A stretch of DNA of 24,570 nt, from positions 1 to 24,570 of the forward strand of contig CAYTXB010000001.1 of the NCBI GenBank assembly GCA_964440895.1, read 5' to 3'. Shown here one piece after another: positions 10,966 through 15,026 of the stretch. The position numbers and the translations under genes are program-made. Under the pieces are notes generated by a model. It made no database searches. It was not told the DNA's origin and was given only the letters and a program-made list of their open reading frames with translations. Each line of letters opens with the position of its first letter. Position 1 is the first letter of the stretch. The stretch comes from an uncultured Dehalococcoidales bacterium (GTDB lineage: Bacteria; Chloroflexota; Dehalococcoidia; Lucifugimonadales; Lucifugimonadaceae).

Positions 10966-11388
10966 ATGAAAATCAGAGTAGCTCAAATAAATGATTTGAA
11001 CGAATTAGAAAATATTTCTGAAGAGCAATTTCATTTCGAGAACTTAAGACCAAAATTCAATAATCTCATTTTTAACAATGATTACGTAGTAAAGGTTATT
11101 GAAATTAAAAAAAATATTTTTGGTTTTATGGTACTTAAGCATGTTGACAAGAATGTTATAGATATTTACTCGATGGCAATTAAAAATAAATATCAAAATA
11201 AGGGTTATGGATATAAATTTTTGAAGGATACTGTGAAAAGTTTTTCAAATTATAAAATTACTTTAGAGGTTTCTGAAAATAATTCTGCTAAAAAATTGTA
11301 CTTAAAATGTGGATTTAAAATAGATTCAGTTAGAAAGCAGTATTATCCTGATTCAGATGCGATTTTGATGAGTTATATTAAAGATTAG
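10966..11388 (+). CDS. rimI: GNAT acetyltransferase, RimI-like (ribosomal protein S18 alanine N-acetyltransferase family)
   Basis: YQNKGYG acetyl-CoA motif, ITLEVSENNSAKKLYLKCGF, RKQYYPDSDAILM. ATG 10966 preferred over TTG 10957. The substrate is not provable from sequence. Confidence 0.75.
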   Translation: MKIRVAQINDLNELENISEEQFHFENLRPKFNNLIFNNDYVVKVIEIKKNIFGFMVLKHVDKNVIDIYSMAIKNKYQNKGYGYKFLKDTVKSFSNYKITLEVSENNSAKKLYLKCGFKIDSVRKQYYPDSDAILMSYIKD

Positions 11389-11644
11389 CCCCAGGCTCTG
11401 AAGTATCATAATCATAATCAGCTGCTTCTTTAATATATTCAGTTTCAGATTCAGGTACTTCGTCATCAGGAAATATAGCATCAACAGGGCAAACTGGTTC
11501 ACATGCCGCACAATCTATGCATTCGTCCTGATTAATAAATAAATGCTTATCACCTTTTTTTGAATAGATGCAATCAACAGGGCATACATCAACGCAAGCT
11601 CCGTCAGTCGTGCCAATGCATGATGATGTAATTATAAATGCCAT
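11378..11644 (-). CDS. fdxA: Ferredoxin, probable 7Fe ([3Fe-4S]+[4Fe-4S]) FdxA type
   Basis: C-x7-C-x3-CPVDC first motif (CIGTTDGACVDVCPVDC) and CIDCAACEPVCP second motif; acidic C-terminal tail. Confidence 0.9.
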   Translation of the reverse strand: MAFIITSSCIGTTDGACVDVCPVDCIYSKKGDKHLFINQDECIDCAACEPVCPVDAIFPDDEVPESETEYIKEAADYDYDTSEPGANL

Positions 11645-11653
11645 CAGATTGTC

Positions 11654-12025
11654 TTAACAGCCTCCGCCGCCTGATCCACAAGCACATGTTCCGCCTGAAC
11701 CGCATCCGCCACCGCCAGCACTTGGAATATTAGGGTTTGATATAACAAAGCCAGATCTTTGCATTCCTTCGACATAATCAATATTAGATCCAGAAATAAG
11801 AGGAACACTACCTGAATCTACAATAGCCTTTACTCCATTTGAATTTATAACAGTGTCAGAAGTATTAGCTTCATTTTCTAATCCGAATTCATAACCGGCA
11901 CCACCACTTTCAGACATAGTTAAAGAAATCCTTAAATAGGATTCTTCATTTCCTTGTTCGCCAAGTACTTCGTTAATCTTTGATGCAGCTGCTTCAGTAA
12001 AAGATATTAAATTTTCTGTTGTCAT
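11654..12025 (-). CDS. HesB/IscA/ErpA family (A-type Fe-S carrier) homolog, atypical
   Basis: ISFTEAAASKI, YLRIS, YEFGL, NGVKAIVDSGSVPLISGSNIDYVEG, GFVISNPN fit the HesB fold; C-terminal CAC. Start is ATG 12025 or GTG 12034. Confidence 0.88.
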   Translation of the reverse strand: MTTENLISFTEAAASKINEVLGEQGNEESYLRISLTMSESGGAGYEFGLENEANTSDTVINSNGVKAIVDSGSVPLISGSNIDYVEGMQRSGFVISNPNIPSAGGGGCGSGGTCACGSGGGGC

Positions 12026-12100
12026 TTGTCCCACTTTTCTAAGTTATATATCTATTTTACACAAATATTTAAATAATTGGAGTAATTTTTGATAAATTTT

Positions 12101-12117
12101 TTACAAAAACTTACAAA
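12101..12117 (+). repeat. Direct repeat TTACAAA x2 with 10-bp period in the divergent HesB/Lrp intergenic region
   Basis: TTACAAAAAC TTACAAAC is read directly at 12101-12118. Function unknown. Confidence 0.4.
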
Positions 12118-12140
12118 CGAAAATCGCAATATATGATATT

Positions 12141-12584
12141 ATGCAAAATGAAATTATGGATAAATTAAATAAAAATATAATCGAGATTTTAAAGTCTGAT
12201 GGACGAGTACCAAATGCTGAAATCGCAAGAAACTTAGGCGTCAGTGAAGGAACCGTTAGAAGAAGAATTAAAATTATGATTGAAGAAAAAGTTTTAAATG
12301 TATATGCAATTCCTGACCCAAAAAAAACAGGATATAATGAAGAAGCATTGATCGGTATACAAGTTGATCCAAATAAATTAGATCAGGTTGGTGAATCCAT
12401 TGCAGAACACGAATATGCAACATGGGTATCTAGAACTACTGGCGGTTTTGATATTTTTACATGGGTAACTGTACCTAATAGTAAAGAACTAACAAATTTT
12501 TTAACATATTTTTTAGGAAATCTTGAAGGAGTAAATAAAACTGAAACATTCATTAGTTTAGATGTTTTAAAGAGAGGATTATAA
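12141..12584 (+). CDS. Lrp/AsnC family transcriptional regulator
   Basis: MDKLNKNIIEILKSDGRVPNAEIARNLGVSEGTVRRRI HTH; C-terminal RAM domain (RTTGGFDI, GVNKTETFISL). Start may be ATG 12156. Confidence 0.93.
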   Translation: MQNEIMDKLNKNIIEILKSDGRVPNAEIARNLGVSEGTVRRRIKIMIEEKVLNVYAIPDPKKTGYNEEALIGIQVDPNKLDQVGESIAEHEYATWVSRTTGGFDIFTWVTVPNSKELTNFLTYFLGNLEGVNKTETFISLDVLKRGL

Positions 12585-13226
12585 ATGGTAACTTACAAAA
12601 AATATTCTAAAACGAAAGACAAGACTTTTTCAATTAAAAACTTATTCAATAGCGAAGATGCATTAATTGATCAATTTGTTAAATCAAATACTATCTTTAA
12701 TGCAACATTTCTAGTAGCTTTCTTTATTTTATTCCAATATTTATTGTCTCAAATAAGATTTTTCTTACCTGATAATCCAGTTCCAATAACGATGCAAACT
12801 TTTGGAATACTAATACTTGGTGGGGTTTATGGCCCAAGATTAACAATAATTTCTGTTCTTTCATATATGATAATTGGGATAGTAGGAGTGCCTGTTTTTC
12901 AAGGGAATAATGGAGGTATTGAATATTTCTTTGGTGTTACTGGGGGATATTTAATCGGGTTTATTTTTGCTTCTACAATTATTTCAGTTCTTTCAAATAA
13001 CGGATTAAAAAAAGGTTTATCAATATGGGCAATGATTATAGGAAACATATCAATATATGTTGTAGCCATAATATGGTTATCGATTTATGATTTTGGATGG
13101 CCAGAAAAAGGCAACTTATTTTCTCAAGCGGTCTACCCTTTTCTTATAGGAGATTTTATTAAATTAGTATTGGCTTCTTTATCAGTTAATATTCTCTGGA
13201 AACTATCAAAAAATTTAAAAAAATAG
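12585..13226 (+). CDS. bioY: Biotin transporter S component BioY
   Basis: PVPITMQTF, GIVGVPVF, GVTGGYLIGF, VYPFLIGDFIK; multi-TM protein. Confidence 0.92.
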   Translation: MVTYKKYSKTKDKTFSIKNLFNSEDALIDQFVKSNTIFNATFLVAFFILFQYLLSQIRFFLPDNPVPITMQTFGILILGGVYGPRLTIISVLSYMIIGIVGVPVFQGNNGGIEYFFGVTGGYLIGFIFASTIISVLSNNGLKKGLSIWAMIIGNISIYVVAIIWLSIYDFGWPEKGNLFSQAVYPFLIGDFIKLVLASLSVNILWKLSKNLKK

Positions 13227-13230
13227 GGAG
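13225..13230 (+). promoter_or_regulatory. Shine-Dalgarno site for aspS, overlapping the bioY stop codon
   Basis: AGGGAG lies 5 nt upstream of TTG 13236. Confidence 0.6.
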
Positions 13231-13235
13231 TAATA

Positions 13236-15026
13236 TTGTATAAAGACCGGGGCTGTGGGCAAGTAAATTTAGATAACGTTGACCAAATAATCAATGTAGC
13301 TGGCTGGGTTGATTCATGGAGAGATCATGGCTCATTACTATTCCTTGATCTCAGAGATAGTACTGGAACAATACAAGTTGTTTTTGATAAAAGCATAAAT
13401 AATGAAAATCATGAAATAGCTTCTTCAATTAGAAATGAATGGGTGATAAAGGTTAAAGGTATTGTAAAAAAAAGAATTGATGGTGCGGAAAATCCAAATA
13501 TACCTACGGGATTCATAGAGATTAGTGCTGATGAATTAACAGTTTTGAACCCATCAAAAACACCTCCATTTGAAGTAAATAATAAAAATATAGACGAAAC
13601 TACTCGGTTGAGGTACAGATACCTTGATCTTCGTTCAGATAAAATGCAAAATAATTTAAGATTAAGGCATGAATTAATTCTAGAGATTTGCAATTTTTTA
13701 AATAATAAAAGCTTTGTCCAGATTGAAACACCAATTTTAATTAAAAGTACGCCTGAGGGTGCTAGAGATTACGTAGTTCCAAGTAGAGTTCATCCCGGTG
13801 AATATTATGCCTTGCCTCAATCACCTCAACAAATGAAGCAAATGTTGATGGTCTCAGGATTTGAAAGATATTTTCAGATTGCTAAATGTTTTAGAGACGA
13901 AGACTTAAGGGCTGACAGGCAGCCTGAGCATACACAGCTTGATTTTGAGATGAGCTTTGTTCACCAAGAAGATGTACTATCGAATTGTGAAGATTTATAT
14001 TCACACTTAGCTGACAAATTTCAAAGCAAAAATATTGAAACACCTTTCCCTAGGATTAAGTATGAAGATGCTATTAATACTTATGGTACTGACAAGCCTG
14101 ATACTAGATTCGATTTGAATATTAAAATATTAGATAAAGAACTCTCAGAAACTGAATTTAATGTTTTTAATAACTCATTAAAAGATGGAGGAACTATAAG
14201 AGGGCTATCTGTCCCAAAAAATGAATCCATGACAAGAAAATTTTATGACAAATTAAATGAATTCGTTAGATCTATTGGCGGCGACGGAATTATACCTATA
14301 TCAATTGATAAAGAACTTTCTGGAATTGAATTTGAAGATATTAAAAGTCCAATAAGTAAATTTTTAAGTGTAGAACATGTTAAAAAAATATTTAATATTT
14401 TTAACTCAGATTCAGATGACGTTATATTAATTTGTGCAGGCAAAAAAAATATTGTTTTGGATTGCCTAGGCCAAGTACGAAATAAGTTGGCTAAAGATTT
14501 TGAATTAATTGATGACGAAAAATTAAATTTTTTGTTTGTAACTGACTTTCCATTATTTGAAAAAGATTTGGAATCTGGCAATTGGACAGCTATGCATCAT
14601 GTTTTTTCTTCTCCAAATGATGAAACAATTAAGTACCTTGATAGTGACCCAAGTAAAGTTATTGGAAACCTTTTCGACTTGGTATGTAATGGTGTTGAAC
14701 TTGGTTCTGGCAGTATCAGAATTCATGATAAAAAAACTCAGGAAAAAGTATTTTCTATTATTGGCTATAAAGATGATCAGATCCAAGATAGATTTGGACC
14801 ACTGCTAGAATCATTTGACTATGGCGCTCCTCCTCATGGAGGGATGGGGTTAGGCATTGATAGGTTAGTGGCAACATTTCTTAAAGAAAATTCTATAAGA
14901 GATGTAATTTCTTTTCCCAAAACACAGAGTGCTTCAGATTTATTATGGGGAGCACCTTCATTGATTGATGAAGATCAAAAAAAAGAACTTAGTATTAAAA
15001 ATATTGAAGAAGAAGGTAAAAATTGA
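13236..15026 (+). CDS. aspS: Aspartate-tRNA ligase, probably non-discriminating (Asp/Asn)
   Basis: RDHG, LDLRD, RLRYRYLDLR, STPEGARDY, ALPQSPQ, RYFQIAKCFRDEDLRADRQPE, GSIRIH, YGAPPHGG, GIDRL, FPKT; H31 and G83 present. Confidence 0.97.
   Translation: MYKDRGCGQVNLDNVDQIINVAGWVDSWRDHGSLLFLDLRDSTGTIQVVFDKSINNENHEIASSIRNEWVIKVKGIVKKRIDGAENPNIPTGFIEISADELTVLNPSKTPPFEVNNKNIDETTRLRYRYLDLRSDKMQNNLRLRHELILEICNFLNNKSFVQIETPILIKSTPEGARDYVVPSRVHPGEYYALPQSPQQMKQMLMVSGFERYFQIAKCFRDEDLRADRQPEHTQLDFEMSFVHQEDVLSNCEDLYSHLADKFQSKNIETPFPRIKYEDAINTYGTDKPDTRFDLNIKILDKELSETEFNVFNNSLKDGGTIRGLSVPKNESMTRKFYDKLNEFVRSIGGDGIIPISIDKELSGIEFEDIKSPISKFLSVEHVKKIFNIFNSDSDDVILICAGKKNIVLDCLGQVRNKLAKDFELIDDEKLNFLFVTDFPLFEKDLESGNWTAMHHVFSSPNDETIKYLDSDPSKVIGNLFDLVCNGVELGSGSIRIHDKKTQEKVFSIIGYKDDQIQDRFGPLLESFDYGAPPHGGMGLGIDRLVATFLKENSIRDVISFPKTQSASDLLWGAPSLIDEDQKKELSIKNIEEEGKN

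What the first reader, a model, noticed from the sequence alone, without database searches (positions are those of the whole stretch)
11654..12025. A-type Fe-S carrier homolog lacking the first conserved Cys but carrying a duplicated Gly/Cys tail with four Cys
IscA/ErpA/SufA proteins use one Cys in GGCSG plus a C-terminal CxC. Here that loop reads ESGGAGY, with no Cys and no in-frame TGA. All four Cys lie in the last 16 residues as C-X5-C-X-C-X6-C (GGGGCGSGGTCACGSGGGGC, with Cys as the final residue). GGGGC and CGSGG each occur twice, suggesting a short duplication. The flexible tail could supply a full ligand set for a cluster or another metal, which would be a different coordination mode (inference).
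Basis: partly seen in the sequence, partly recalled or inferred. Interest (0 to 1): 0.6.

Follow-up and report, generated by a model that had tools for sequence, protein, structure and literature searches.

The report
Iron-sulfur carrier with all-cysteine tail
This small gene of an uncultured marine Chloroflexota (SAR202-type) bacterium encodes a second, divergent copy of a known iron-sulfur cluster carrier. The copy has lost one of the three classical cysteines and instead keeps four cysteines in a floppy glycine-rich tail. The same design, always next to a ferredoxin gene, is conserved across its whole bacterial order and has not been described in the papers searched.

Summary
The minus-strand ORF at 11654-12025 encodes a 123-aa Fe-S_biosyn/HesB-IscA protein (Pfam 46.8 bits, TIGR00049 79.6 bits, both above cut-off). 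It has no Cys in the GGCSG-equivalent loop. Its four Cys (108, 114, 116, 123) all lie in a tail that AlphaFold2 predicts to be disordered.

It is neither an error nor a one-off:
- 365 species genomes encode relatives, and the best 80 are all Chloroflexota/Dehalococcoidia/SAR202.
- None of those 80 has a core Cys, and 76 of 80 have at least 4 tail Cys. The commonest tail is CxC-GGGG-CxC.
- C114-x-C116 aligns with the canonical CxC, so only Cys1 was lost and flanking Cys were added.
- The protein is a paralogue. The same genome and five closed relatives also carry a canonical three-Cys carrier, which sits next to a YgfZ/IBA57-like gene.
- The variant is followed by a 7Fe-type ferredoxin in 71 of 77 informative loci and faces a divergent Lrp gene in 77 of 80.
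- Marine metatranscriptome contigs cover the gene, and two of them span the junction with the ferredoxin gene.

The best reading is a specialised Fe-S carrier that ligates its cluster through the tail and works with the ferredoxin. This is inferred, not shown. I rate it a new variant of a known kind, of moderate interest.

The parts
11654..12025 (-). CDS of the variant A-type-carrier paralogue (123 aa; stop codon 11654-11656)
   Evidence: Translation. Pfam PF01521 46.8 bits against cut-off 26.3, and TIGR00049 79.6 against 58.8. The AF2 core has pLDDT 80-90 and the best Foldseek matches are IscA/SufA structures.
11891..11914 (-). Loop SESGGAGY (residues 38-45), the position of canonical Cys1 (GGCSG); it contains no Cys
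   Evidence: Alignments to IscA, ErpA-like and SufA structures and to the genome's own canonical copy. The loop varies across the clade (S/N/D/H/Q/G/M at the Cys1 position) but always keeps GG-x-x-Y/H.
11657..11716 (-). Gly/Cys tail, residues 104-123 (GGGGCGSGGTCACGSGGGGC)
   Evidence: pLDDT below 50, i.e. predicted disordered. 65% G+C in a 30% G+C window. Relatives have tails of 15-91 aa with 3-10 Cys.
11678..11686 (-). C114-A-C116, the retained canonical CxC (Cys2/Cys3)
   Evidence: Aligns with CGC of the canonical paralogue. C114 is invariant and C116 is conserved in at least 90% of 24 clade members.
11702..11704 (-). Extra Cys108
   Evidence: An upstream extra Cys or a second CxC is present in relatives.
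11657..11659 (-). Extra Cys123 (last residue)
   Evidence: Invariant column in alignment A2. It is not always the terminal residue in relatives.
11378..11644 (-). Downstream 88-aa FdxA-like ferredoxin; its start lies 9 nt after the carrier's stop
   Evidence: Pfam Fer4 hits. The best NCBIfam hit is FdxA_Actino at 96 bits, below its cut-off of 125. The Cys pattern C9-X7-C17-X3-C21P...C42-X2-C45-X2-C48-X3-C52P is that of 7Fe ferredoxins (read from the sequence). Found downstream of the variant in 71 of 77 informative related loci. RNA-library contigs bridge the junction.
12026..12140 (.). Intergenic region shared with the divergent Lrp gene (probable promoters)
   Evidence: Position only. The divergent arrangement is conserved. 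Promoters were not tested.
12141..12584 (+). Divergently transcribed Lrp/AsnC-family regulator, a conserved neighbour
   Evidence: Pfam HTH_AsnC-type and AsnC_trans_reg. Upstream and divergent in 77 of 80 related loci.

Best explanation
The gene encodes a specialised paralogue of the A-type Fe-S cluster carriers (HesB/IscA/ErpA family). The usual beta-sandwich core is kept, but the cluster-binding cysteines have moved entirely into a flexible Gly-rich C-terminal tail. The canonical CxC (C114, C116) is retained, Cys1 in the core loop is lost, and two flanking Cys (C108, C123) replace it. Each protomer therefore offers four thiolates instead of three. I infer that the tail holds a [2Fe-2S] or [4Fe-4S] cluster received from the SUF machinery. 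I also infer that the protein works with the co-transcribed 7Fe ferredoxin, either loading that ferredoxin's clusters or drawing electrons from it for reductive cluster coupling. The canonical carrier elsewhere in the genome, next to a YgfZ/IBA57-like gene, would do the general job. Shown here: family membership by profile and fold, loss of Cys1, clade-wide conservation of at least 4 tail Cys, paralogy, conserved synteny with the ferredoxin, and presence in RNA libraries. Inferred: metal or cluster binding, the ligand set, and the ferredoxin partnership.
For: - Profile and fold: PF01521 and TIGR00049 score above their cut-offs. The AF2 core matches IscA 1r94/1s98, SufA 2d2a and [2Fe-2S]-IscA 1x0g.
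- Cys1 is absent, and the CxC aligns with the canonical CGC.
- Conservation: the best 80 of 365 related species loci lack any core Cys, 76 of 80 have at least 4 tail Cys, and the modal tail is CAC-GGGG-CGC. C114 and the last Cys are invariant in A2.
- Order-wide spread: 73 of 81 evenly sampled genomes of the window's order have a match of at least 105 bits that includes the tail, and most of them also have a second match of about 65-80 bits typical of a canonical carrier.
- Paralogy: the own genome and five closed chromosomes each have one canonical GGGCSG...CGCGxSF copy plus the variant.
- The canonical copy is followed by a GCV_T-fold (YgfZ/IBA57-like) gene in the own genome and in 4 of 5 closed genomes.
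- The variant is followed by the ferredoxin in 71 of 77 informative loci, down to 46% identity.
- SufB and SufD are present in the genome.
- In a set that is biased towards Gly/Cys tails, all 39 Cys1-less relatives have at least 3 tail Cys, so the total of at least 3 Cys is preserved.
- Metatranscriptome contigs from four studies cover the gene, and two of them bridge the carrier-ferredoxin junction.
- Precedents: ATCs use three Cys ligands and can hold both cluster types (PMC8593673). A hesB-fdxH gene neighbourhood exists in cyanobacteria (PMC6428710).
Against: - There is no biochemical evidence of any kind.
- The tail is predicted disordered, so no geometry can be modelled.
- Tail length and Cys number vary widely (3-10), which is unusual for a defined cluster site.
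- Some lineages have His-rich tails and lack the ferredoxin neighbour, which fits generic metal binding equally well.
- Known ATC-like proteins that lost Cys ligands (the NfuA N-domain and DsrR) do not bind clusters.
- RNA-library contigs can contain DNA and do not prove a single transcript.
- The Cys1 status of the 73 order-level matches was not checked one by one.
Confidence: 0.5

Rival explanations
1. The protein is a metal chaperone or buffer. The Gly/Cys (and, in some relatives, His) tail would act like a metallothionein or like the metal-binding tails of HypB, SlyD or UreE. It would bind mononuclear Fe(II), Zn, Ni or Cu rather than an Fe-S cluster, and the IscA-like core would serve only as a docking module.
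For: Repeated CxC motifs in a disordered tail with very plastic length. His-rich expansions occur in some relatives, for example L017, L031 and P0212. Those long-tail forms lack the ferredoxin neighbour. IscA has been proposed as an iron donor (my own knowledge, not checked here).
Against: The canonical CxC position is strictly kept. No metalloenzyme-maturation or metal-transport genes lie in the conserved neighbourhood. The marine clade that holds the window has no His in its tail. The conserved partner is an Fe-S protein.
Confidence: 0.2
2. The protein is a degenerate A-type domain that binds no cluster. Like the N-domain of NfuA or like DsrR, it would act as a targeting or regulatory adaptor, here for the ferredoxin or for the canonical carrier.
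For: Loss of a ligand Cys is exactly what defines the degenerate NfuA domain, which binds no cluster but targets apo-proteins (PMC8593673). DsrR (2k4z) is among the structural matches. A canonical carrier coexists in the genome.
Against: Unlike NfuA-N and DsrR, this clade keeps CxC and adds Cys. At least 4 Cys are conserved in 76 of 80 loci in a genome with 0.63% Cys, which indicates selection on the thiols. NfuA models score only about 24 bits against cut-offs of about 268. No fusion partner was seen in the searched length range of 67-216 aa.
Confidence: 0.15
3. The protein is a thiol-based relay. The multi-Cys tail would carry persulfide sulfur or act as a redox (disulfide) buffer for the ferredoxin or the SUF pathway.
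For: Many closely spaced thiols on a flexible arm. This is speculative.
Against: No cysteine desulfurase, SufE/SufU or TusA-like gene is a conserved neighbour. There is no precedent in the IscA fold.
Confidence: 0.05
4. The Gly/Cys tail is a ribosomal-peptide (thiazole/oxazole, microcin B17-like) precursor core fused to a leader-like domain.
For: Only the Gly/Cys/Ser-rich composition of the tail.
Against: The 24.6-kb window holds no cyclodehydratase, YcaO or dehydrogenase genes, only housekeeping genes. The neighbourhood lrp / carrier / fdxA is conserved across an entire order. The core is a well-folded IscA domain.
Confidence: 0.01

Closest known systems
Canonical A-type carriers (IscA, SufA, ErpA, HesB; Pfam PF01521, NCBIfam TIGR00049)
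   Same: Same profile family and the same fold. The FxxxNPN motif is kept, as is a CxC that aligns with Cys2/Cys3. The protein is small and stand-alone, in a genome with a SUF system.
   Different: No Cys1 in the GGCSG loop. The CxC lies 14 residues after NPN instead of 3-4, inside a poly-Gly stretch. There are two extra Cys, the CGCGxSF ending is missing, and RSGFVISNPN is a clade signature. The protein coexists with a genuine canonical copy.
Degenerate A-type domain of NfuA
   Same: An IscA-like fold that has lost a cluster-ligating Cys (PMC8593673).
   Different: In NfuA the domain is fused to an Nfu domain that carries the cluster. Here the protein stands alone and keeps or gains four Cys. 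NfuA models score far below their cut-offs.
DsrR of Allochromatium vinosum (PDB 2k4z)
   Same: An IscA-like fold and a structural match.
   Different: [quoted passage not shown] 2010 as cited in PMC11406059. From my own knowledge, DsrR lacks the Cys ligands. Its gene lies in a dsr sulfur-oxidation cluster. The window protein keeps CxC plus extra Cys and sits next to a ferredoxin.
Extended-tail, Cys1-containing carriers of other Chloroflexota
   Same: They are the nearest relatives on the tree. They carry a C-terminal extension with additional Cys, and often a terminal CxC(G)H.
   Different: They keep Cys1 and the CGCGxSF motif, their linker is not poly-Gly, and they have no lrp/fdxA synteny.
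Cyanobacterial hesB next to fdxH
   Same: An A-type carrier gene adjacent to a ferredoxin gene; the hesA-hesB-fdxH fragment is described in PMC6428710.
   Different: That pair lies in a nif cluster, and from my own knowledge it involves a [2Fe-2S] plant-type ferredoxin and a canonical three-Cys HesB. Here the ferredoxin is 7Fe-type, the context is housekeeping, and Cys1 is absent.

Membership tests
HesB/IscA (Fe-S_biosyn) homology family | Profile match above the curated cut-off | tested here: met
   PF01521 46.8 bits (cut-off 26.3); TIGR00049 79.6 bits (cut-off 58.8).
HesB/IscA (Fe-S_biosyn) homology family | IscA-type alpha/beta sandwich fold | tested here: met
   AF2 core pLDDT 80-90. Foldseek matches 1r94, 1s98, 2d2a and 1x0g at E 2e-8 to 1e-5, with target-normalised TM-scores 0.70-0.85.
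Canonical A-type carrier (three-Cys ATC in the sense of Vinella 2009 and PMC8593673) | Cys1 in the GGCSG loop | tested here: not met
   The loop is SESGGAGY. No Cys is present in any alignment, and none is present in the core of the 80 relatives.
Canonical A-type carrier (three-Cys ATC in the sense of Vinella 2009 and PMC8593673) | C-terminal CxC (Cys2, Cys3) | tested here: met
   C114-A-C116 aligns with CGC of the canonical paralogue and is conserved. The spacing from NPN is 14 residues rather than 3-4, so the classical HesB signature, as I recall it, would not match.
Canonical A-type carrier (three-Cys ATC in the sense of Vinella 2009 and PMC8593673) | Binds and transfers [2Fe-2S]/[4Fe-4S] clusters | not testable with these tools
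   Needs reconstitution and spectroscopy.
ErpA / IscA / SufA equivalogs | NCBIfam equivalog score above cut-off | tested here: not met
   ErpA 78 against 117, SufA 65 against 136, IscA 54 against 151.
NfuA (degenerate ATC fused to Nfu) | C-terminal Nfu domain and an NfuA profile match | tested here: not met
   The protein is 123 aa with no Nfu domain. TIGR03341 scores 24.9 against a cut-off of 269.
DsrR-like Cys-less IscA homologues | Absence of all three ligand Cys | tested here: not met
   Four Cys are present, including the canonical CxC.
HesB-like selenoproteins (TIGR01911 / NF038090) | Profile above cut-off, or an in-frame TGA at a ligand position | tested here: not met
   18 bits against 66 and 38.8 against 85. 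There is no in-frame stop.
7Fe ferredoxin FdxA (the neighbouring gene) | FdxA equivalog score and the 7Fe Cys pattern | tested here: inconclusive
   FdxA_Actino scores 96.2 against a cut-off of 125, and FdxA_fam 55.9 against 65. The Cys pattern C-X7-C-X3-CP ... C-X2-C-X2-C-X3-CP fits a 7Fe ferredoxin (read from the sequence).

The most novel reading that the evidence does not exclude
This would be an order-wide class of Fe-S carrier in which one protomer ligates a cluster with four thiolates, all supplied by an intrinsically disordered Gly/Cys tail (CxC plus two flanking Cys, or CxC-G4-CxC). The core loop would contribute no ligand. The protein would have evolved as a dedicated maturation or electron partner of a 7Fe ferredoxin. 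That coordination mode and client specificity are not known for A-type carriers.
Probability: 0.3. Interest if true: 0.65.

Novelty: new variant of a known kind. Interest (0 to 1): 0.5.

Why it matters
Which residues ligate clusters in A-type carriers, and whether these proteins carry [2Fe-2S], [4Fe-4S] or iron, is still debated. This clade is a natural experiment. Hundreds of species have kept the fold and the CxC for a long time but dropped Cys1 and moved the remaining ligands onto a flexible tail, while a canonical copy remains in the same cell. Characterising it would show whether Cys1 is dispensable when a fourth thiolate is available. It would also show whether carrier paralogues are dedicated to particular clients, here a 7Fe ferredoxin. 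Finally, it would show how abundant ocean and soil Chloroflexota (SAR202 and relatives) organise Fe-S delivery. If the tail binds another metal instead, the protein would be a new use of the IscA scaffold.

Tried and rejected
Gene context was obtained instead from the search for related loci, the genome search and the fetch from genomes.
- Tandem Repeats Finder found no DNA-level repeat in the tail, so a recent duplication in this gene is not shown.
- The independent-pairs test of 'Cys1 loss goes with at least 4 tail Cys' was unpowered: only one pair lay on supported branches. The sequence set is also biased, because the query's own Gly/Cys tail favours such hits.
- The 100-column tree is poorly resolved. 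Cys1 loss needs up to 9 changes on it, but supported branches force only 1. No claim is made about the number or order of losses.
- E-value alone does not separate Cys1-less from Cys1-containing relatives across the phylum. G200/L113, for example, has Cys1 at E 5e-35. The phylum tally of 243/301 therefore counts carriers in general, not the variant.
- The selenoprotein reading was rejected: no in-frame stop, and the models score below cut-off.
- The RiPP-precursor reading was rejected on gene context.
- In lineages without the ferredoxin neighbour, the downstream genes were uninformative: an EamA transporter, an enoyl-CoA hydratase and unassigned ORFs.
- The ESM Atlas gave only family-level confirmation.
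- Two literature searches returned nothing: SAR202 with Fe-S assembly, and A-type carrier with 7Fe ferredoxin. Two phylogenomic papers on A-type carriers (PMC2682760, PMC7144353) do not mention this variant in the passages found.
- Parts of the stretch without RNA-contig cover (11300-11507 and 12021-12169) are not interpreted.

Full report
**1. What is in the sequence**

The minus-strand ORF at 11654-12025 translates to a 123-aa protein. A GTG nine bases upstream could also start it, but homologues begin MTTEN..., which favours the ATG at 12025.

Cysteine occurs only at residues 108, 114, 116 and 123, giving C-X5-C-X-C-X6-C, and the last residue is Cys.

The other 24 genes of the window contain 0.63% Cys and 5.9% Gly. 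Four Cys in 16 residues therefore has a chance probability of about 3e-6. The tail-coding DNA is 65% G+C in a 30% G+C window.

The sequence itself is sound:
- Identical proteins are on record from dozens of contigs.
- Contigs from two independent metatranscriptomes match 11652-11971, which includes the loop, without a single difference.

**2. What family it belongs to**

- Pfam Fe-S_biosyn scores 46.8 bits (cut-off 26.3).
- NCBIfam TIGR00049, 'iron-sulfur cluster assembly accessory protein', scores 79.6 bits (cut-off 58.8).
- The specific ErpA, IscA, SufA, NfuA and seleno-HesB models all fall below their cut-offs.
- An AlphaFold2 model built on 24 clade members has a confident core (pLDDT 80-90) and a disordered tail (residues 104-123, pLDDT below 50).
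- The best Foldseek matches are E. coli IscA (1r94, 1s98), SufA (2d2a), the [2Fe-2S]-bound IscA of T. elongatus (1x0g), an ErpA-like NMR structure, and DsrR.

In pairwise HMMER alignments to these structures, and in a MAFFT alignment with the genome's own canonical copy, the canonical GGCSG loop lies opposite SESGGAGY. No alignment places a Cys there.

C114-A-C116 aligns with the canonical CGC. The protein has therefore lost Cys1, kept Cys2 and Cys3, and gained two flanking Cys. The CxC lies 14 residues after the NPN motif instead of 3-4.

**3. It is a clade character, not an oddity**

A word-indexed search found 283 relatives. Thirty-five that I read, at 41-90% identity, all lack Cys1. They all keep (Q/E/M)RSGFVISNPN, and they all end in a Gly/Cys tail; their total lengths are 116-173 aa.

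A scan of one genome per prokaryotic species found 365 genomes encoding a relative. The best 80 are all MAGs labelled Chloroflexota, Dehalococcoidia or SAR202. In those 80 loci:
- The core has no Cys wherever the start codon is called sensibly.
- The tail is 15-91 residues long with 3-10 Cys.
- 76 loci have at least 4 Cys, two have 3, and two are truncated or could not be parsed.
- The commonest tail is FAGG-CAC-GGGG-CGC-GG, that is CxC-G4-CxC.

In the 24-sequence alignment, C114 and the last Cys are invariant and C116 is conserved in at least 90%.

I also sampled 81 genomes evenly from the window's taxonomic order, covering 67 genera. Of these, 73 have a match of at least 105 bits that includes the tail. 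Most also have a second match of 63-83 bits that stops before the tail. I did not inspect the Cys1 loop in each of those 73.

**4. It is a paralogue beside a canonical carrier**

The window's genome is a 626-kb assembly, 65% complete. It has a second Fe-S_biosyn gene on another contig with GGGCSG and CGCGTSF, a textbook three-Cys carrier. It also has SufB and SufD.

Five closed chromosomes of relatives each have exactly two family members: one canonical (GGGCSG...CGCGDSF) and one variant (no Cys1, CAC-GGGG-CGC).

On a tree of 121 sequences, which is weakly resolved at 100 columns:
- The canonical copies of this group form a supported clade (SH-aLRT 97) far from the variant.
- The variant clade (SH-aLRT 91) sits among Chloroflexota carriers that keep Cys1 but already carry a C-terminal extension with extra Cys.

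Such extended-tail, Cys1-containing forms (...CGCGxSF(R/K/Q)TA...C(G)C(G)H) are what most other Chloroflexota have. A plausible order of events is that extra tail Cys came first and Cys1 was lost afterwards. The tree is unrooted and too weak to show this.

In the set analysed, which is biased towards Gly/Cys tails, all 39 Cys1-less sequences have at least 3 tail Cys (median 4). Cys1-containing sequences have a median of 3 and a minimum of 2. The phylogenetically independent test was unpowered.

**5. Gene context**

In the window, the variant's stop codon is followed 9 nt later by an 88-aa ferredoxin gene at 11378-11644. Its Cys pattern (C-X7-C-X3-CP ... C-X2-C-X2-C-X3-CP) is that of 7Fe [3Fe-4S][4Fe-4S] ferredoxins. 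Its best NCBIfam hit is actinobacterial FdxA, below the cut-off.

Upstream and divergent lies an Lrp/AsnC regulator followed by bioY and aspS.

Across the 80 related loci:
- The ferredoxin follows the variant in 71 of the 77 loci that extend far enough.
- The divergent Lrp gene is present in 77 of 80.
- This holds down to 46% protein identity.

The exceptions without a ferredoxin are mostly forms with long, partly His-rich tails. Their downstream genes are unrelated.

Cys1-containing relatives in other Chloroflexota classes do not share this synteny.

By contrast, the canonical copy is followed by a GCV_T-fold gene in the own genome and in 4 of 5 closed genomes. YgfZ and IBA57, the known partners of A-type carriers, have this fold (my own knowledge). 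The two paralogues thus have different, conserved partners, which argues for a division of labour.

The rest of the window is housekeeping: ftsK, nusB, fabD, acpP, ruvCAB, an ABC exporter pair, rimI-like GNAT, tig, clpP, xseA, efp, aroQ, xerC/D-like and topA. There are no peptide-modification genes.

**6. Expression**

Contigs assembled from marine metatranscriptome libraries of four different studies lie on the gene at 95-100% identity. Two of them (11508-12020 and 11554-11898) span the junction between the carrier and the ferredoxin.

This shows the locus is present in RNA libraries and is consistent with co-transcription. Contigs cannot exclude DNA carry-over or prove a single transcript.

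**7. How it most likely works**

A-type carriers are thought to hold [2Fe-2S] or [4Fe-4S] clusters through three Cys, which are C37, C101 and C103 in 1x0g. They can convert 2x[2Fe-2S] to [4Fe-4S] by two-electron reductive coupling (PMC8593673).

Four facts bear on the mechanism here:
- The CxC is kept.
- The total Cys count is never below three.
- At least four tail Cys are conserved in a genome that uses very little Cys.
- The conserved partner is an Fe-S protein.

I therefore favour, at confidence about 0.5, a cluster carrier whose ligands all come from the flexible tail, acting with the 7Fe ferredoxin as either client or reductant. An A-type carrier gene next to a ferredoxin gene has a precedent in cyanobacterial hesA-hesB-fdxH (PMC6428710).

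The rivals are:
- A metallothionein-like metal chaperone (0.2). It is favoured by the plasticity of the tail and by the His-rich variants.
- A non-binding adaptor like the NfuA N-domain or DsrR (0.15). It is disfavoured because those proteins lost their Cys rather than gaining more.
- A thiol relay (0.05).
- A RiPP precursor (0.01), rejected on gene context.

**8. Novelty**

Databases label these proteins simply 'HesB/IscA family' or 'iron-sulfur cluster assembly accessory protein'. Two phylogenomic studies of A-type carriers treat the three Cys as universally conserved and do not mention such a clade in the passages retrieved (PMC2682760, PMC7144353). Targeted literature searches found nothing.

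I classify it as a new variant of a known kind. It is a genuine, conserved and expressed paralogue with an altered ligand layout and a conserved ferredoxin partner. Its chemistry is untested.

**9. Caveats**

- The phylum-level tally (243 of 301 genomes) includes five unpublished genomes: G232, G178, G150, G277 and G043. No specific claim rests on any of them, and the tally counts carriers in general, not the variant.
The synteny and RNA-contig results here agree with it.

Noticed in passing
L095-L113 (loci from other Chloroflexota genomes; e.g. L098 1986-2462, L100 1979-2401): Most other Chloroflexota carry a Cys1-containing A-type carrier with a C-terminal extension after CGCGxSF. The extension ends in one or two further Cys and often a His (e.g. 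...SF(R/K/Q)TA..G....C(G)C(G)H). A fourth or fifth potential ligand therefore seems to be a phylum-wide trait that has not been described in the papers searched.
   Followed up: partly
L001 1477-2084 (own genome, contig C33) and L083, L085-L087: The canonical three-Cys carrier is immediately followed, and in the own genome overlapped, by a GCV_T-fold gene (PF01571, 44 bits). This is the fold of YgfZ/IBA57. The pairing recurs in 4 of 5 closed relatives' genomes.
   Followed up: partly
L032 5001-5579; L027 2680-3189; L017 5001-5504; protein P0127: Some relatives have tails of 66-91 residues built from acidic/Gly/Cys units of about 30 aa that are repeated two or three times, or they have His-rich stretches (GHAHGEDDGHGHE). 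Several of these lack the downstream ferredoxin.
   Followed up: partly
window 11657-11725: The tail-coding DNA is 65% G+C in a 30% G+C genome. Seven of its 13 Gly codons are GGC, interleaved with GGT and GGA, and no DNA repeat is detectable. This may limit replication slippage, but that was not tested.
   Followed up: no
window 12141-15026 and 80 related loci: The run lrp - bioY - aspS, divergent from the carrier gene, is conserved across the order (lrp in 77 of 80 loci, aspS in most; bioY is missing in some lineages). The Lrp-family regulator is thus a candidate regulator of either arm.
   Followed up: partly
window 11378-11388: The ferredoxin gene and the convergent GNAT (rimI-like) gene overlap by 11 nt at their 3' ends, which leaves no room for a terminator. 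Another first-reader note also recorded this.
   Followed up: no
The genome search, 'same class' genomes (families f3, f5, f6 and others): Many small genomes of the same class (1.0-2.4 Mb, 96-100% complete; several are single contigs of 1.4-1.9 Mb) gave no match at all to the carrier model at E<=1e-8. Some lineages of the class therefore appear to lack A-type carriers entirely among the genomes searched.
   Followed up: no
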